A stretch of DNA of 39,305 nucleotides, taken from Escherichia phage vB_EcoP_SP7. Below, one piece after another: positions 1,044 through 6,233 of this stretch (the first letter of the stretch is position 1; each line of letters starts with the position of its first letter). The DNA lies in sequence record MT682707.1; one strand, 5' to 3'. The translations under genes and the position numbers were made by a program. The notes under the pieces are model-generated. The model ran no database searches. It was not told where the DNA came from and worked only from the letters and a program-made list of their open reading frames with translations.

Positions 1044-1066
1044 ACTTAACTATCACTATAGGACTC
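1044..1066 (+). promoter_or_regulatory. Phage-RNAP promoter immediately upstream of the RNAP gene
   Basis: ACTTAACTATCACTATAGGACTC matches the consensus of the other ten promoters; predicted +1 G at 1061. Confidence 0.7.
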
Positions 1067-1135: not shown

Positions 1136-3817
1136 ATGAGCGTCATCTCTATTGACAAACACGACTTCTCTGATGTGTCGAACGCCATTGAGCCGTTTAA
1201 CCTGCTGGCTGACCATTACGGGCAAGACCTTGCAGTTAAACAGCTTCAGCTTGAGCATGAGGCATACACTGAAGGCGAGCGACGTTTCATCAAAAACCTT
1301 GAGCGCCAGACTGAGCGCGGGGAATTGGCAGACAATCAGGTAGCCAAGCCTCTCATGCAGACTCTGGTCCCTAAGATTGCGCAAGCCGTCAAGGAGTGGC
1401 ACGAAGGCGCGGACGGGAAGCTGTCAACTTCTCGCCCTAGCGTAGCGTTCACCATGTTGAGCACTGAAGAGAAGGCCGTCAAGGACCGCTCTCTACGCAT
1501 ATCCTGTGAGTCTGCTGCGGTTATCATACTGAAGGTCATCCTCTCCAAGCTGGTCAAGCCTGAAGGGATACCGATTACACCGATGGCCTCCGCGATAGGT
1601 CGCACACTTGAGGATGAAATCCGCTTCGGTCGCATCCGTGACAAGGAGCAGGAGCACTTCAAGAAGGCGATAGCTGAGAACCTGAACAAGCGCGCCGGGG
1701 CATCCTACAAAAAAGCCTACATGCAAGCGGTTGAGACATCCATGCTGGAGCAAGGACAGCTTGAAGATGCGTGGGGGACTTGGAGTCCGACCGAGGCGGT
1801 ACACGTTGGCATCAAGATGCTTGAGATTGTCATCCAGTCTACGCAACTGGTCGAGCTTAAGCGTTATGGTGCTGGCAATGCAGCGGCTGACGTTGAGATG
1901 GTCCACCTGTCAGACTTCTGGGTCAAGAAGATGGCACAACGTGGATTCAGCCTTGCGGGTATCGCACCAGTCTATCAGCCTTGCGTAGTTCCACCTAAGC
2001 CGTGGACGGGTGTCGTAGGCGGTGGTTACTGGGCTAAAGGTCGCAGACCGTTACCATTGATTCGCTTAGGGTCTAAGTCTGCGGTAGCACGTTACGAAGA
2101 CGTGTACATGCCTGAAGTCTATGACGCTGTGAACATCATCCAGAATACACCTTGGAAAGTTAACAAGAAGGTACTGGACGTGGTGAACATGGTCGAGAAG
2201 CTGAACAACACGCCTATTGATGACATCCCTCAGATGGAACCACTGAAGCCTGAGGACTACGCGGGTGAGACCGAAGAGGACCTCAAGGCATGGAAGAAGG
2301 CTGCTGCTGGTATCTACCGCCGAGAGAAGGCCCGGCAGTCACGCAGATTGTCACTGAGCTTTATCGTTAACCAAGCGAACAAGTTCTCTCAGTTCAAGGC
2401 CATCTGGTTCCCGTACAACATGGACTGGCGCGGTCGCGTCTACGCTGTGCCGATGTTCAACCCTCAGGGTAACGACATGCAGAAGGGTCTCCTGACTCTG
2501 GCAGTCGGCAAGCCCATTGGTGCTGATGGTTTCAAATGGCTGAAGGTCCACGGTGCAAACTGTGCTGGTGTCGATAAAGTCACCTTCGAGGAGCGCATCA
2601 AGTGGGTGGAAGACAACCACGACAACATCATGGCTGCTGCTAAGGCACCGATGGATAGCATTGAGTGGTGGGGCAAGTTAGACTCTCCGTTCTGCTTCCT
2701 TGCGTTCTGCTTCGAGTATGCTGGCGTAATGCACCACGGCCTGTCTTACTCCTGCTCTCTGCCCATAGCGTTCGATGGGTCCTGCTCCGGTATTCAGCAC
2801 TTTAGTGCTATGCTTCGTGACCACATCGGCGGACATGCAGTAAACCTGACGCCTTCCGGTAAGGTCCAAGACATCTACCGCATCGTGTCTGACCGCATTG
2901 AGGAGGAGCTTAAAGTCCTGCTGGTTAATGGCACGGACAACGAGGTGGTCACTCACGAGGACAAGAAAACTGGTGAGATTACCGAACGTCTCAAGCTGGG
3001 TACACGAGAGTTGGCCCGTCAGTGGCTGACTTACGGTATGTCACGCAAGGTCACTAAGCGTTCAGTCATGACTCTGGCCTATGGGTCGAAAGAGTACGGC
3101 TTCGCAGACCAAGTTTACGAGGACATCGTAATGCCTGCGATTGACTCAGGGTCTGGCGCTATGTTCACCGAACCAAGCCAAGCGTCCCGCTTCATGGCTA
3201 AGATGATTTGGGAAGCCGTGAGTGTGACCGTGGTTGCTGCTGTTGACGCGATGAAGTGGCTTCAAGGTGCTGCCAAGCTGCTGGCTGCTGAAGTGAAGGA
3301 CAAAAAGACTGGAGAAATCCTGAAGCCTTGCCTTCCGGTACACTGGGTCACACCTGATGGTTTCCCGGTCTGGCAGGAATACCGCAAGAAGGATACCACT
3401 CGTCTGAATCTGATGTTCTTAGGGTCATTCAACCTTCAGCCTACCGTCAACAAAGGCACGAAGAAGGAGTTGGATAAGCACAAGCAGGAGTCAGGTATTA
3501 GCCCGAACTTCGTCCACTCACAAGATGGTAGCCACCTACGCAAGACTGTAGTCCACACTCACCGCAAGTATGGCGTGATGTCATTCGCAGTGATTCACGA
3601 TAGCTTCGGGACCATCCCGGCTGACGCTGAGTATCTGTTCCGTGGTGTCCGTGAGACGATGGTCGAGACCTACCGAGACAACGATGTGCTGCTTGACTTC
3701 TACGAGCAGTTTGAATACCAACTTCATGAGAGCCAACGCGACAAGCTGCCTGAGCTTCCGAAGAAAGGTAAACTGAATATCGAAGACATCTTGTCTTCAG
3801 ACTTTGCATTCGCTTAA
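1136..3817 (+). CDS. DNA-directed RNA polymerase, single-subunit T7 type (gene 1), 893 aa
   Basis: Collinear with recalled T7 RNAP along its length (e.g. FNLLADHYG, CVVPPKPWTG, FPYNMDWRGRVYAV, HGANCAGVDK, SPFCFLAFCFEYAGV, LPIAFDGSCSGIQHFSAMLRD, SFAVIHDSFGT, C-terminal SDFAFA). Confidence 0.98.
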   Translation: MSVISIDKHDFSDVSNAIEPFNLLADHYGQDLAVKQLQLEHEAYTEGERRFIKNLERQTERGELADNQVAKPLMQTLVPKIAQAVKEWHEGADGKLSTSRPSVAFTMLSTEEKAVKDRSLRISCESAAVIILKVILSKLVKPEGIPITPMASAIGRTLEDEIRFGRIRDKEQEHFKKAIAENLNKRAGASYKKAYMQAVETSMLEQGQLEDAWGTWSPTEAVHVGIKMLEIVIQSTQLVELKRYGAGNAAADVEMVHLSDFWVKKMAQRGFSLAGIAPVYQPCVVPPKPWTGVVGGGYWAKGRRPLPLIRLGSKSAVARYEDVYMPEVYDAVNIIQNTPWKVNKKVLDVVNMVEKLNNTPIDDIPQMEPLKPEDYAGETEEDLKAWKKAAAGIYRREKARQSRRLSLSFIVNQANKFSQFKAIWFPYNMDWRGRVYAVPMFNPQGNDMQKGLLTLAVGKPIGADGFKWLKVHGANCAGVDKVTFEERIKWVEDNHDNIMAAAKAPMDSIEWWGKLDSPFCFLAFCFEYAGVMHHGLSYSCSLPIAFDGSCSGIQHFSAMLRDHIGGHAVNLTPSGKVQDIYRIVSDRIEEELKVLLVNGTDNEVVTHEDKKTGEITERLKLGTRELARQWLTYGMSRKVTKRSVMTLAYGSKEYGFADQVYEDIVMPAIDSGSGAMFTEPSQASRFMAKMIWEAVSVTVVAAVDAMKWLQGAAKLLAAEVKDKKTGEILKPCLPVHWVTPDGFPVWQEYRKKDTTRLNLMFLGSFNLQPTVNKGTKKELDKHKQESGISPNFVHSQDGSHLRKTVVHTHRKYGVMSFAVIHDSFGTIPADAEYLFRGVRETMVETYRDNDVLLDFYEQFEYQLHESQRDKLPELPKKGKLNIEDILSSDFAFA

Positions 3818-3829
3818 CAGGAGAGAGTT

Positions 3830-4045
3830 ATGAAATTCGCACACAAGCAGACTGGCGTTAAGGGTGGGACTCAAATCGTGACCGTAACAGAACACAACGG
3901 CAAGGGTCTGGTGAAGACCACTGTCATTCCAACTAAGATGTCCAAGCAGCTTAACATCCCGTTCAAGACCCTTGTATATCTGGTCGAGTCCAGCCATGAG
4001 AAGTACCTGAAGGACGCAGTGTCTAAACTGGAGCAGACCAAATGA
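3830..4045 (+). CDS. Hypothetical protein (71 aa), no T7 counterpart at this position
   Basis: ORF with RBS directly after gene 1; lies upstream of the promoter/RNase III pair that marks the gene 1.1 start in T7. Confidence 0.5.
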   Translation: MKFAHKQTGVKGGTQIVTVTEHNGKGLVKTTVIPTKMSKQLNIPFKTLVYLVESSHEKYLKDAVSKLEQTK

Positions 4046-4123
4046 CAGACCTACAGTTACTGGCCTTGTGGCTGGGAGCACTCGCAGTATTCACTTTAAT
4101 CCAACGCAGAAGAGGTTAACCCT

Positions 4124-4591
4124 ATGTTCGGTAAGTCAAAACTTAGAGCACAAATCAAAGAGTTGAGCATGAAGGTGGCATACTTGGAGCGAGCCGTAAT
4201 GGTCAGGGATAAAGACAACGAGAGACTGAAGGTTAAACTTGCTGAATCAGAGCGTAAGCGCCTAACGACACCAGCGGCTGTAACTGTCAAGCGTATGGTA
4301 GGCATCAAGTTCAAGGCACTTTTCAACGGTCTATACCAACCGACTGAGTTCAAGACCGGGCCGGGTAGCTGTGGGAAGAACGTTAAGCACTTCACCACAT
4401 CGAAGACTGAACGCACCATTACCATCCACCAACACCACGTAGACGGGTCTCAGAAAGACTTTGAGTACCGACTGAGCGACATAGACGGTCGCATCCAGTA
4501 TGACTACGAGCTGGTTCGGCTCTACGGCGAGGAGGAAGAGCAGGAACGTATAGTCCAAGCCTTCCGCAACATACCACGATTCATGCCCTAA
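4124..4591 (+). CDS. Hypothetical protein (155 aa) with predicted N-terminal coiled coil
   Basis: ORF with GAGG RBS; N-terminal heptad-like charged region (KELSMKVAYLERAVMVRDKDNERLKVKLAESERKRL). No recognised homolog. Confidence 0.55.
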   Translation: MFGKSKLRAQIKELSMKVAYLERAVMVRDKDNERLKVKLAESERKRLTTPAAVTVKRMVGIKFKALFNGLYQPTEFKTGPGSCGKNVKHFTTSKTERTITIHQHHVDGSQKDFEYRLSDIDGRIQYDYELVRLYGEEEEQERIVQAFRNIPRFMP

Positions 4592-4609
4592 ACTATCACT
4601 ATAGGATTA
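4587..4609 (+). promoter_or_regulatory. Phage-RNAP promoter (phi1.1 position)
   Basis: CTAAACTATCACTATAGGATTAG; +1 at 4604. Confidence 0.8.
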
Positions 4610-4650
4610 GACTCAAGGTCATGACTCAAAGTCGTGGCCTTCATGATTAA
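4609..4650 (+). promoter_or_regulatory. RNase III processing site (R1.1-like)
   Basis: AGACTCAAGGTCA...GTGGCCTTCATGATTAA; the same conserved element recurs at 11899 and 34856 and resembles the recalled T7 R0.5 site GACTCAAGGTCGC..GAGTGGCCTTTATGATT. Confidence 0.7.
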
Positions 4651-4679: not shown

Positions 4680-4859
4680 ATGTATCAGAACACTATCAAC
4701 TTCGAGCGCATCCGTGAACGTCAGCAGACTGAAGGTTACATTCCTAAGGGTCGCAAGCTGAACAAGACCAAACGTGGCGGTGGTGTCAAGGGTGCTTTCC
4801 GTAATGCTGAAGGTAAAGACTCTCTGGTTAACCAAGAGAAGTATTTCGTAGGAGCATAA
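4680..4859 (+). CDS. gp1.1-like small basic protein (59 aa)
   Basis: Contains KGRKLNKTKR, matching the recalled T7 gp1.1 motif; sits directly after promoter plus RNase III site as in T7. Confidence 0.6.
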   Translation: MYQNTINFERIRERQQTEGYIPKGRKLNKTKRGGGVKGAFRNAEGKDSLVNQEKYFVGA

Positions 4860-5127: not shown

Positions 5128-6233
5128 TGACTACGACTATTAAAACTAACCCGCACCGCGCTGTAGATTACTCTGAGTCCGGCGTTAAGAAAGCACTGGA
5201 AGCTGCCGGGTCACTGGAAGCTGAGGTGAAGTATGACGGTGTGCGCCTGAATCTCCCGGTCTTCCCGACAGGCGAGACCCAGTGGTTGAGCCGAGAGTCC
5301 AAGCCGCTTCCAGCCCTTGAATGGCTATCTGTCCTGACCAGCCTCGACAATATCGTGGAAGACCAGCAGCGCGCTAGCGACTGGCGGTGGTTCCTGAAGC
5401 AAGCTGGCTATGAGGGGACTGGCCTGATGGTTGATGGCGAGGTCATGGTGAAAGGGGTAGACTTCAACACATCCTCAGGTCTCATCCGAACGAAGTGGGT
5501 AAAGCAAAAGAACTTTGAGTTTTCAACTGGTGAGCACTGGGGTAAGAACTGGAAGAAAGAGAATCTACCGTTCTGTCTTGACAGGAAGCACATCAAGGTG
5601 GTCGTCTATGGTATCATCGACCTTAACGTCATCCTCGACCCGAAAGCCGAAGGTCCTATCCATAGCGTCACACGCCTGAAGGCCGAAGCTATCGTCCCTC
5701 TACTTCAGAAATACTTCCCGGAAATCGACTGGGTTCTGTCTGAGTCACACACGGTCTATGACCTTGAGTCGCTCAACTCCCTGTACGAAGAGAAGCGTCT
5801 GGAAGGACACGAGGGTCTGGTAGTCAAAGACCCACTTGGTAAATACAAGCGTGGTAAGAAGTCAGGCATGTGGAAAATGAAGCCTGAGGAGACAATTGAC
5901 GGGACCGTGTGTGGACTCGTGTGGGGGACTCAGGGTAAGGCCAACGAAGGCAAGGTCATTGGTTTTGAGGTTCTCTTGGAGGATGGCATGGTGGTTAACG
6001 CCTGTGGCCTGACTGAGGATCAGAAGGACGAGTTCACGGCAGAAGTATTTAACCGCAATGGGATTGACTCCCAGCGCGAGTACGAGGAATTGCTTTGTAT
6101 TGAGACTTTCAACCCTTACGGCGGGTGGCAGTGCGAGGTCCTCTTCATGGAGCGCTTCCCAGATGGTTCCTTACGTCACCCTAGCTTCAAGTGCTGGCGC
6201 GGGACGGAAGACAACCCTACCATTAAGAGCTAA
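5127..6233 (+). CDS. ATP-dependent DNA ligase (gene 1.3)
   Basis: IKTNP N-terminus, adenylation motif EVKYDGVR, and LMVDGEVMVKGVDFNTSSGLIRTKW match recalled T7 ligase. ATG at 5127 overlaps the gene 1.2 stop (track start 5112 is less likely). Confidence 0.95.
   Translation: MTTTIKTNPHRAVDYSESGVKKALEAAGSLEAEVKYDGVRLNLPVFPTGETQWLSRESKPLPALEWLSVLTSLDNIVEDQQRASDWRWFLKQAGYEGTGLMVDGEVMVKGVDFNTSSGLIRTKWVKQKNFEFSTGEHWGKNWKKENLPFCLDRKHIKVVVYGIIDLNVILDPKAEGPIHSVTRLKAEAIVPLLQKYFPEIDWVLSESHTVYDLESLNSLYEEKRLEGHEGLVVKDPLGKYKRGKKSGMWKMKPEETIDGTVCGLVWGTQGKANEGKVIGFEVLLEDGMVVNACGLTEDQKDEFTAEVFNRNGIDSQREYEELLCIETFNPYGGWQCEVLFMERFPDGSLRHPSFKCWRGTEDNPTIKS

What the first reader, a model, noticed from the sequence alone, without database searches (positions are those of the whole stretch)
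3830..4591. Accessory gene block between the RNAP gene and the first class II promoter
In T7 the promoter/RNase III site preceding gene 1.1 follows gene 1 directly. Here two ORFs (71 aa and 155 aa, the latter with a predicted coiled-coil N-terminus) plus a 25-aa hydrophobic micro-ORF (4042..4119, MTDLQLLALWLGALAVFTLIQRRRG) sit in between, and the promoter at 4587 lies inside the 3' end of the 155-aa ORF. Their position puts them in the early/middle transcript, consistent with host-takeover or anti-defense roles; I recognise no homologs.
Basis: inference. Interest (0 to 1): 0.6.

Follow-up and report, generated by a model that had tools for sequence, protein, structure and literature searches.

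The report
Kayfunavirus gene 1.05 block with hidden micro-gene
The stretch after the phage RNA polymerase gene holds three real small genes: a genus-wide 71-aa protein, a conserved 25-aa membrane peptide, and a dispensable member of the long-known but uncharacterised phage T3 gene 1.05 family. It is mostly ordinary, and the membrane peptide is the one modestly new point.

Summary
The window is Escherichia phage vB_EcoP_SP7, a Kayfunavirus (K1F-like).

- **155-aa ORF:** it does have homologs. It belongs to Pfam PF25755 (phage T3 gene 1.05 protein) and sits in the same slot as gene 1.05 of T3 and K11, with the phi1.1-type promoter overlapping its last 5 nt and a conserved R1.1 RNase III hairpin after it. 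About 84 of ~220 related phage records carry it. K1F and others lack it cleanly, between CCCTA repeats.
- **71-aa ORF (phrog_8082) and 25-aa micro-ORF:** both occur in essentially all ~220 relatives, so they are core to the genus rather than accessory.
- **Micro-ORF:** it shows a clear coding signature (31 synonymous against 15 amino-acid variants, pN/pS about 0.2, never interrupted). It persists in Citrobacter phage CR8 behind an unrelated gene.
- **gp1.05 in other genera:** most forms carry their own N-terminal membrane helix. Here that helix is missing and the membrane micro-gene lies 4 nt upstream.
- **Structure:** a confident model of gp1.05 (pLDDT 95) has no solved structural relative.

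Function is unknown. I infer host-interaction factors acting at the inner membrane. Verdict: a new member of a known kind, of low to moderate interest.

The parts
1136..3817 (+). Gene 1, the phage single-subunit RNA polymerase (893 aa). It forms the upstream boundary of the block.
   Evidence: ORF list. Annotated as RNA polymerase in all related records.
3819..3823 (+). Shine-Dalgarno AGGAG for the 71-aa ORF, 6 nt before its ATG.
   Evidence: Read directly from the sequence.
3830..4045 (+). ORF-A: a 71-aa basic protein (pI 9.9) of family phrog_8082, restricted to Kayfunavirus-like phages. The predicted fold is a three-strand beta-meander followed by two helices.
4042..4119 (+). Micro-gene for a 25-aa single-pass membrane peptide (hydrophobic residues 4-20, then RRRG). 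Its ATG overlaps the ORF-A stop codon (ATGA), which implies translational coupling.
   Evidence: Intact in every locus examined, 36 in all, in K1F and in Caroctavirus CR8 behind an unrelated gene. Coding signature: 31 synonymous against 15 amino-acid variants in this frame, 8:38 and 6:43 in the other frames, pN/pS 0.21-0.24. The region is not a stable RNA structure (z +2.2). Annotated as a CDS in GA2A and IMM-002.
4110..4115 (+). Shine-Dalgarno AAGAGG for the 155-aa ORF. It lies inside the Arg-Arg-Gly codons of the micro-gene.
   Evidence: Read directly from the sequence. The sequence is invariant in Kayfunavirus loci, including those that lack gp1.05.
4124..4591 (+). ORF-B: a gp1.05-family protein of 155 aa. 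It has an N-terminal 46-residue helix (coiled-coil-like, nt 4127-4264), a six-strand beta domain (residues 53-133, nt 4280-4522) and a C-terminal helix.
   Evidence: PF25755 E 7.7e-25 over residues 58-128. phrog_8103 E 2.5e-58. 241 close homolog clusters. 60 distant representatives. Invariant residues G79 C83 V87 Q103 F113 G122 R123. AlphaFold2 pLDDT 95.2.
4120..4124 (+). Left copy of the CCCTA short direct repeat that flanks the gp1.05 cassette.
   Evidence: Genomes without gp1.05 read GGTTAACC(C)TAAACTATCACTATAGG. This window reads GGTTAACCCTA|TGTTC...ATGCCCTA|AACTATCAC.
4586..4590 (+). Right copy of the CCCTA repeat. It is also part of the promoter's upstream end and of the ORF-B stop codon.
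4587..4609 (+). Phage RNA polymerase promoter, homologous in position to phi1.1 of T3 and K11 (+1 at 4604).
   Evidence: Exact match to the genome's promoter core and to the shared upstream bases. Aligned with the annotated phi1.1 promoters of T3 and K11 and phi1.1A of T7.
4612..4642 (+). R1.1-type RNase III hairpin (ACTCAAGGTCAT...GTGGCCTT).
   Evidence: RNA fold -22.1 kcal/mol, z -3.1, 0 of 200 shuffles as stable. The sequence is conserved with T3's annotated R1.1 stem-loop and with T7, K11 and CR8.
4680..4859 (+). Gene 1.1 (59 aa). It forms the downstream boundary of the block.
   Evidence: PF08200 E 5.6e-11.

Best explanation
**What is shown.** The interval holds three real protein-coding genes, co-transcribed with the RNA polymerase gene. 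It ends at the phi1.1-type promoter and the R1.1 RNase III site.
1. A 71-aa basic alpha/beta protein that is core to Kayfunavirus.
2. A 25-aa membrane peptide, translationally coupled to the 71-aa gene. It is core to Kayfunavirus and shared with Caroctavirus.
3. A dispensable gp1.05-family protein (Pfam PF25755) in the same slot as gene 1.05 of T3 and K11.

**What is inferred (mechanism).**
- gp1.05 probably works as a coiled-coil oligomer whose conserved beta domain acts at the cytoplasmic face of the inner membrane. In other Studiervirinae genera for which a full-length gene 1.05 was read here (Przondovirus, Apdecimavirus, Berlinvirus) and in about a third of the distant family representatives, the same domain is tethered by its own N-terminal helix followed by basic residues.
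- In Kayfunavirus that anchor is missing, and a separately translated anchor-like peptide is encoded 4-5 nt upstream.
- The peptide also has a function of its own, because it is kept under purifying selection in phages without gp1.05.
- All three are most likely non-structural factors of the early or middle phase that act on host components. They are unlikely to be replication or transcription machinery.
For: **Identity of the window**
- It is phage vB_EcoP_SP7: a 100% identical protein on a contig of 39305 bases.

**gp1.05**
- Family membership.
- Same slot and same promoter overlap as in T3 and K11.
- R1.1 hairpin homology.
- No promoter or terminator inside the block.
- Variable presence: tblastn covers 80% or more of the protein in 84 records, against 221 records with the micro-ORF region and 219 with ORF-A. 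It is cleanly absent from K1F and from six further distinct viral contigs, L014, L015, L019, L021, L022 and L023. It is broken in SH3 and Peacock.

**Micro-gene**
- Coding signature and conservation across two genera.
- Overlap with the upstream stop codon (ATGA, or TAATG in CR8) is conserved.

**Membrane-anchored architecture elsewhere**
- K11, AP10 and PhiV-1 gp1.05 each begin with a hydrophobic helix followed by basic residues.
- About 19 of 60 distant representatives do the same.

**Structure**
- Confident model with helix 2-47 and a beta domain at 53-133.
Against: - No experiment or expression data exist for any of the three genes. Literature searches gave only genome-annotation tables.
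- The membrane link is architectural only. The micro-peptide shows no demonstrable sequence homology to the anchors of the other genera.
- The micro-peptide is present in about 140 records that lack gp1.05, so the two are not obligate partners.
- Erwinia phage L1 has a coiled-coil gp1.05 with neither an anchor nor an upstream micro-ORF. T3 gp1.05 is the bare domain.
- The last 8 codons of the micro-gene barely vary even at synonymous sites within Kayfunavirus. Some nucleotide-level constraint is superimposed on the coding constraint.
Confidence: 0.55

Rival explanations
1. The micro-ORF is not translated. Its conservation reflects a nucleotide-level element, such as the ribosome-binding site of gene 1.05, sequence upstream of the phi1.1 promoter, or part of a replication origin.
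For: - The 3' third (ATCCAACGCAGAAGAGGTTAA) is nearly invariant even at synonymous sites in 19 Kayfunavirus sequences.
- It contains the Shine-Dalgarno sequence of gene 1.05 and abuts the promoter in genomes without gp1.05.
- Nucleotide identity of this 121-bp piece is 95% or more in 160 of 221 records, while the flanks diverge.
- In T3 the primary origin lies in the equivalent interval.
Against: - The first 18 codons vary mostly at third positions.
- There are 31 synonymous against 15 amino-acid variants in this frame, and 8:38 and 6:43 in the other two frames. pN/pS is about 0.2.
- The frame is never interrupted in the 36 loci examined.
- CR8 keeps the peptide (21 of 25 residues identical) at 76% nucleotide identity, including an AGA to CGT change that preserves Arg, and it has a different promoter downstream.
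- The region folds less stably than shuffled sequence.
- The Shine-Dalgarno sequence is retained where there is no gene 1.05 to serve.
Confidence: 0.1
2. The micro-ORF and gene 1.05 are joined by programmed ribosomal frameshifting. This would recreate the membrane-anchored gp1.05 found in K11, AP10 and Berlinvirus.
For: - In the window, the gene 1.05 frame is open from 4100, so a +1 shift between 4100 and 4119 would fuse the two.
- Tandem rare AGA codons and a Shine-Dalgarno-like AAGAGG precede the stop codon.
- The fused architecture exists as a single gene in other genera.
Against: - The spacer between the micro-ORF stop codon and the gene 1.05 ATG is 4 nt in most genomes. It is 5 nt in Peacock, IMM-002, L039 and L044, so the frame relation is not conserved.
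- There is no slippery sequence on which the P-site tRNA could re-pair.
- The micro-ORF is kept where gene 1.05 is absent.
- A search with the hypothetical fusion junction found no fused protein.
Confidence: 0.03
3. gp1.05 serves phage DNA replication at the primary origin, for example by tethering the origin to the membrane, and does not act on host factors.
For: - In T3 the annotated primary origin (5682-5758) overlaps the start of gene 1.05.
- In T7 the origin lies at phi1.1A/B, which is established knowledge.
- The gene always sits next to the phi1.1 promoter.
- The protein is basic (pI 9.7), and many homologs are membrane-anchored.
Against: - The gene is missing or broken in most Kayfunavirus records, and these are viable isolates.
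- T7 lacks it entirely.
- This window has no phi1.05 promoter upstream of it.
- No known DNA-binding fold or motif was detected.
Confidence: 0.1
4. One reading: the ORFs are anti-defence or host-takeover factors in the strict sense, meaning inhibitors of a specific bacterial immune system.
For: - The genes have an early position.
- gp1.05 shows presence/absence polymorphism, and its N-terminal helix diversifies quickly (several unrelated coiled-coil variants on a conserved domain).
- The same interval hosts other inserted ORFs in EcoDS1 and L011. This is typical of accessory regions.
Against: - No similarity to any known anti-defence or defence protein. PADLOC gave only a weak helix-turn-helix hit to ORF-A (E 0.016).
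- ORF-A and the micro-gene are invariant core genes, not fast-evolving accessory ones.
- The accessory-gene screen that I read does not mention this family.
Confidence: 0.25

Closest known systems
Phage T3 gene 1.05 protein family (Pfam PF25755, PHROG 8103/6379); gene 1.05 of T3, K11, EcoDS1 and Erwinia phage L1
   Same: - The conserved beta domain with the motif FK.G.G.CGK.V ... Q.H.DG..K.F.Y ... D..GR.
- The position between gene 1 and the phi1.1 promoter plus R1.1 site, with the promoter overlapping the 3' end of the gene.
- Function unknown, and non-essential.
   Different: - T3 gp1.05 is the bare 90-aa domain. K11, AP10 and PhiV-1 carry an N-terminal membrane helix plus a coiled coil. The window's protein has the coiled coil but no membrane helix.
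- T3 and K11 have a phi1.05 promoter (and T3 the primary origin) upstream. Here that place is taken by two other genes, with no phage promoter.
T7 gene 1 / phi1.1A-phi1.1B / R1.1 / gene 1.1 junction
   Same: The homologous R1.1 hairpin and the genes 1.1, 1.2 and 1.3 follow the promoter.
   Different: T7 has no genes between gene 1 and the promoter (26 nt). The window has 770 nt carrying three genes.
Small bacterial and phage single-pass membrane peptides, such as type I toxins and small regulators of membrane proteins (recalled from general knowledge, not tested here)
   Same: The size (25 aa), one hydrophobic helix and a basic C-terminal flank.
   Different: No sequence similarity was found. 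There is no antisense RNA or toxin-antitoxin context. It is encoded inside an operon and is translationally coupled to the upstream gene.
LptE / RlpB fold, and the type III secretion chaperone / SecB-like two-layer alpha/beta folds (structural resemblance of the 71-aa ORF)
   Different: - Sequence identity is 12% or less.
- There is no signal peptide or lipobox cysteine (the protein has no cysteine).
- It is half the size of LptE.
- Only one of the five models is highly confident. The resemblance is probably generic.

Membership tests
Pfam PF25755 Phage_T3_1_05 (gp1.05 family) | Score above the curated gathering threshold of the family model | tested here: met
   87.1 bits against a cut-off of 27, E 7.7e-25, profile positions 2-73 of 73. 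All 120 listed close homologs carry a precomputed PF25755 hit.
Pfam PF25755 Phage_T3_1_05 (gp1.05 family) | Conserved residues of the domain (G-x-G-x-C-G-K, Q-x-H-x-D-G, G-R) | tested here: met
   G79, C83, V87, Q103, F113, G122 and R123 are invariant, and F76, G81, G84, D107, G108, K111 and Y115 are 90% or more conserved, in a 57-sequence alignment reaching down to 23% identity. T3 gp1.05 shows the same motif.
Pfam PF25755 Phage_T3_1_05 (gp1.05 family) | Genomic slot: directly downstream of gene 1 and directly upstream of the phi1.1 promoter, R1.1 and gene 1.1 | tested here: met
   T3, K11, L1, AP10 and PhiV-1 all have gene 1.05 between gene 1 and gene 1.1 or 1.2. The promoter overlaps the gene's 3' end in the two records that annotate phi1.1 (T3 by 6 nt, K11 by 2 nt) and in this window by 5 nt.
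T3/K11-type gene 1.05 transcription unit | Its own phage promoter (phi1.05) between gene 1 and gene 1.05 | tested here: not met
   No match to the promoter core, with up to 3 mismatches, between 1063 and 4592. The interval holds ORF-A and the micro-gene instead.
Membrane-anchored gp1.05 subtype (K11 'gp1.05 fusion protein', AP10, PhiV-1) | N-terminal hydrophobic helix on the same polypeptide | tested here: not met
   The window protein starts MFGKSKLRAQIKEL, with no hydrophobic segment. A separate 25-aa hydrophobic ORF lies 4 nt upstream.
PHROG 8082 (the 71-aa ORF) | Full-length match to the family profile | tested here: met
   E 1.2e-41, residues 1-66 on profile positions 1-66 of 66. The family is of unknown function.
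LptE / RlpB lipoproteins (considered for the 71-aa ORF) | Signal peptide with a lipobox cysteine, and export to the outer membrane | tested here: not met
RNase III processing site R1.1 of T7-group phages | A stable hairpin after the phi1.1 promoter with the conserved AAGGTC...GTGGCCTT arms | tested here: met
   z -3.1. The arms are invariant in an alignment with T3's annotated R1.1 and with T7, K11 and CR8. Cleavage itself cannot be tested here.
Known anti-phage defence or anti-defence proteins | Similarity to a catalogued family | tested here: not met
   PADLOC gave no hit for gp1.05 or the micro-peptide, and only a weak HTH_VI hit (E 0.016) for ORF-A. NCBIfam gave nothing.
Small membrane peptide (the micro-gene) | Actual translation and membrane insertion | not testable with these tools
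   Only indirect evidence is available: the coding signature, mean Kyte-Doolittle hydropathy of 2.2 over residues 4-20, and the conserved start/stop overlap.

The most novel reading that the evidence does not exclude
The 25-aa micro-gene is an unrecognised core small membrane protein of Kayfunavirus and Caroctavirus. It arose as, or now serves as, the detached membrane anchor of gp1.05. It would recruit the soluble coiled-coil gp1.05 to the inner membrane when that gene is present, and act on a host membrane target by itself when it is not. This would be a natural split-gene version of the single-chain anchored gp1.05 of K11-like and Berlin-like phages.
Probability: 0.25. Interest if true: 0.5.

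Novelty: new member of a known kind. Interest (0 to 1): 0.3.

Why it matters
gp1.05-domain proteins occur in at least 600 Autographiviridae records, including therapeutic Klebsiella and E. coli K1 phages, and nothing is known about what they do. Three results make the family tractable:
- The domain comes bare, with a coiled coil, or membrane-anchored.
- It is cleanly dispensable within one genus.
- Its fold has no solved relative.

Natural isogenic-like pairs with and without the gene exist for comparison. The micro-gene is missed in most of the annotated related records examined here; only GA2A and IMM-002 annotate it. It is a concrete example of the small proteins that gene callers skip. None of this overturns current understanding of T7-group genome organisation.

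Tried and rejected
- **Micro-ORF as an RNA hairpin or RNase III site.** Rejected: the region folds less well than shuffled sequence (z +2.2), and Rfam finds nothing.
- **Micro-ORF as a degenerate phage promoter.** Rejected: no match within 3 mismatches.
- **Programmed +1 frameshift fusing the micro-ORF to gp1.05.** Rejected: the spacer is 4 or 5 nt in different genomes, and no fused protein was found.
- **tblastn of the 25-aa peptide.** It found nothing, probably because of the low-complexity filter. A degenerate DNA pattern search in IMG/VR found only contigs of about 39-40 kb, the same size as the Kayfunavirus and CR8 genomes.
- **'Microtubule-binding protein' annotation of gp1.05 in phages TM1 and yong1.** Rejected as a coiled-coil artefact. 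The only Pfam hint was TMF_DNA_bd at E 0.81.
- **Two repeat-rich 588-aa and 1173-aa hits in the representative search.** These are cysteine- and glycine-rich low-complexity proteins, not relatives.
- **Base composition.** There is no anomaly that would mark the block as foreign.
- **Short repeats in the region.** Apart from the CCCTA junction, they look like chance.
- **Literature.** No functional study of gp1.05 was found. The phage accessory-gene screen I read does not mention it.
Full report
**Source of the window.** The window is the genome of Escherichia phage vB_EcoP_SP7. The 155-aa protein is 100% identical to 'hypothetical protein SP7_0006' on a contig of 39305 bases. The region 3700-4800 matches 223 phage records at 80-93% nucleotide identity. 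Almost all are Kayfunavirus (K1F-like Autographiviridae) of Escherichia, Salmonella, Enterobacter, Citrobacter and relatives.

**Observation check.**
- The promoter is real. The core ACTATCACTATAGGA at 4592-4606 is one of 11 plus-strand copies in the window, where about 1 is expected by chance. All copies share the upstream bases (C/A)CT(A/T)A.
- With +1 at 4604, the 23-bp promoter is 4587-4609. It overlaps the 155-aa ORF by 5 nt, which include its TAA stop.
- The sequence after it (ACTCAAGGTCAT...GTGGCCTTCATGATTAAC) forms a hairpin that is significantly stable (z -3.1).
- This hairpin aligns with the annotated R1.1 RNase III site of T3 and with the corresponding sequence of T7, K11 and CR8.
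- Genes 1.1 (PF08200) and 1.2 (PF10922) follow.
- One correction is needed. A perfect promoter core also lies at 1049-1063, just upstream of gene 1, so 4587 is not the first phage-type promoter.
- No sigma-70-like promoter, terminator or phage promoter lies inside 3817-4587. The three ORFs therefore share the gene 1 transcript.

**The 155-aa ORF is a gp1.05-family protein.**
- It matches Pfam PF25755 'Enterobacteria phage T3 gene 1.05 protein' (87 bits against a cut-off of 27) and PHROG 8103. Its EcoDS1 homolog is annotated gp1.05.
- T3 and K11 have the layout gene 1 - phi1.05 - gene 1.05 - phi1.1 (overlapping the 3' end of gene 1.05) - R1.1 - gene 1.1. T3 and K11, not T7, are therefore the right comparators. 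The arrangement of a promoter overlapping the end of the ORF is inherited, not peculiar to this phage.
- An exhaustive profile-free search found only 60 representative clusters at E 0.001 or better, all of them small proteins.
- tblastn with a distant member finds the domain in 602 phage records across Autographiviridae.
- The family has three architectures:
  - the bare domain of about 80-100 aa, as in T3 (90 aa);
  - coiled coil plus domain, about 160 aa, as in Kayfunavirus and Erwinia phage L1;
  - N-terminal hydrophobic helix followed by basic residues, then coiled coil, then domain, about 170-190 aa, as in K11, AP10, PhiV-1 and about 19 of the 60 representatives.
- A 57-sequence alignment reaching down to 23% identity leaves G79, C83, V87, Q103, F113, G122 and R123 invariant.
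- AlphaFold2 gives a confident model (pLDDT 95.2): helix 2-47, six strands between 53 and 133, and helix 135-148.

**gp1.05 is the accessory part.**
- tblastn covers 80% or more of the protein in 84 phage records. The neighbouring micro-ORF region is found in 221 records and the 71-aa ORF in 219.
- K1F itself and six further distinct viral contigs (L014, L015, L019, L021, L022, L023) lack it cleanly. There the micro-ORF stop codon is followed at once by the promoter, GGTTAACC(C)TAAACTATCACTATAGG.
- In the window the same sequence is interrupted: GGTTAACCCTA|TGTTC ... ATGCCCTA|AACTATCAC. A 466-bp cassette is thus bounded by a CCCTA direct repeat (4120-4124 and 4586-4590).
- SH3 and Peacock carry broken copies.
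- Five other genera have gene 1.05 in the same slot. Loss in K1F-type lineages is therefore more likely than gain, but this is an inference.
- The N-terminal helix exists in several unrelated sequence variants on a well-conserved domain.
- EcoDS1 and one metagenomic relative also have an extra ORF inserted between gene 1 and the 71-aa ORF. The interval is therefore a site of gene flux.

**The 71-aa ORF.**
- It matches PHROG 8082, of unknown function, and has no Pfam, NCBIfam or PDB sequence hit.
- It is confined to contigs of about 40 kb of this phage group, with 156 protein clusters.
- It comes in 71-aa and 66-aa forms that differ in the last helix. The first 45 residues are almost invariant.
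- It is basic, with pI 9.9.
- The best AlphaFold2 model (pLDDT 92.6; the other four are 60-79) is a three-strand meander followed by two helices.
- The protein has no signal peptide and no cysteine, so it is not an LptE-type lipoprotein. I treat the resemblance as a generic two-layer alpha/beta fold.
- It is a core gene of the genus, not an accessory one.

**The 25-aa micro-ORF is very probably a real gene.**
- It is intact, with the same length, in every locus examined: 36 loci and 20 distinct nucleotide sequences in the first set.
- Variable columns fall 12, 7 and 18 on codon positions 1, 2 and 3.
- In its own frame there are 31 extra synonymous codon variants against 15 amino-acid variants, with no internal stop codon. 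The other two frames give 8:38 and 6:43, with stop codons.
- pN/pS is 0.21-0.24 against the three most distant copies.
- The amino-acid changes are conservative within the hydrophobic core: V/I, L/M, F/Y/L and GA/AF.
- Citrobacter phage CR8 belongs to a different genus (Caroctavirus), with a different promoter and an unrelated 45-aa upstream gene. It keeps MTYLQLFALWMGALAVFTLIQQRRG at 76% nucleotide identity.
- The start codon always overlaps the stop codon of the upstream gene (ATGA, or TAATG in CR8). This points to translational coupling.
- The region is not a stable RNA structure and matches no Rfam family.
- The peptide has one hydrophobic stretch (residues 4-20, mean hydropathy 2.2) followed by RRRG.
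- Two GenBank records already annotate it as a CDS: GA2A as 'hypothetical protein' and IMM-002, doubtfully, as 'DUF2842'. Most records do not.
- One caveat: the last eight codons hardly vary even synonymously within Kayfunavirus. They contain the Shine-Dalgarno sequence of gene 1.05 and abut the promoter, so a nucleotide-level constraint is superimposed.

**How the pieces may fit together.**
- Three other genera (Przondovirus K11, Apdecimavirus AP10, Berlinvirus PhiV-1) anchor the gp1.05 domain through an N-terminal helix followed by basic residues. By the positive-inside rule, this places the coiled coil and domain in the cytoplasm at the inner membrane.
- Kayfunavirus gp1.05 lacks the helix, but a peptide of exactly that type is encoded 4-5 nt upstream.
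- I therefore think the gp1.05 domain works near the membrane, and the peptide may substitute for the missing anchor.
- This is an architectural argument only. The peptide is kept in about 140 records without gp1.05, so it must also have a role of its own. Phage L1 and T3 have neither an anchor nor a micro-ORF.
- A programmed frameshift joining the two ORFs is excluded. The spacer is 4 nt in some genomes and 5 nt in others, and no fused protein was found.

**Function.**
- I found no experimental work on gp1.05. The literature hits are annotation tables, and a large screen of phage accessory genes does not mention it.
- There is no similarity to catalogued defence-related proteins.
- My best guess is that all three are non-structural early or middle proteins that act on host components at or near the inner membrane. 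gp1.05 would be the host-dependent, dispensable one.
- A role of gp1.05 at the replication origin is a weaker alternative. It is suggested by the T3 origin overlapping the gene's start, but it is made unlikely by the gene's frequent absence.

**Verdict.**
- It is wrong that they lack homologs, and wrong that the whole block is accessory.
- The finding is a new member of a known kind. Its modestly new elements are the coding evidence for the micro-gene, the clean cassette boundaries of gene 1.05, the three-architecture view of the family, and a confident model of a fold with no solved relative.

Noticed in passing
window 1044-1066: A perfect copy of the phage promoter core (ACTATCACTATAGGA at 1049-1063) lies 73 nt upstream of the RNA polymerase gene. 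The polymerase gene and the block after it can therefore be transcribed by the phage enzyme itself. The leader that follows (1060-1140) does not fold into a significant hairpin (z +0.9).
   Followed up: partly
L001 (EcoDS1) 1634-1864; L011 5909-6073: Some relatives carry an additional unrelated ORF (76 aa in EcoDS1, 54 aa in a metagenomic contig) inserted between gene 1 and the 71-aa ORF. This is a second insertion slot in the same interval. EcoDS1 also labels the 71-aa ORF homolog 'gp1.1', which looks like a mis-annotation.
   Followed up: no
window 4124-4264 and homologs in L009, L010, L011, L037-L044: The N-terminal coiled-coil half of Kayfunavirus gp1.05 exists in several mutually dissimilar sequence variants (MFGKSKLKAQIKEL..., MFFNSALKARIAELE..., MFNRKLKARIA..., MFFNNKVATRL...). 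The C-terminal domain stays about 80-90% identical. The C-terminal tail also has at least three variants.
   Followed up: partly
window 4095-4119: The last eight codons of the micro-gene are almost invariant at the nucleotide level across Kayfunavirus, even in genomes without gene 1.05. The first 18 codons vary freely at synonymous sites. The extra constraint is unexplained; it could be the ribosome-binding site, sequence upstream of the promoter, or something else.
   Followed up: partly
window promoters at 4587, 6490, 7482, 9945, 19192, 20191, 32015 and others: Most promoters carry CTAA at positions -16 to -13. At 4587 this TAA is the stop codon of the upstream gene. Promoter and gene end are fused in the same way in T3 and K11.
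   Followed up: no
L036 (IMM-002) 834-1030 and 924-1439: The IMM-002 record over-annotates this region. It has two antisense ORFs ('metal resistance protein' and a dinoflagellate-named hypothetical protein), labels the micro-ORF 'DUF2842', and starts gp1.05 inside the micro-ORF in another frame. These are annotation artefacts, not features.
   Followed up: yes
L042 (IMG/VR contig 3300045988_000139), micro-ORF: One copy of the micro-peptide has Asp in the middle of the hydrophobic stretch (MTDLQLLDLWLGALALFTLIQRRRG). Another database entry (P0302) is a frameshifted 47-aa version. These are possibly defective alleles or assembly errors.
   Followed up: no
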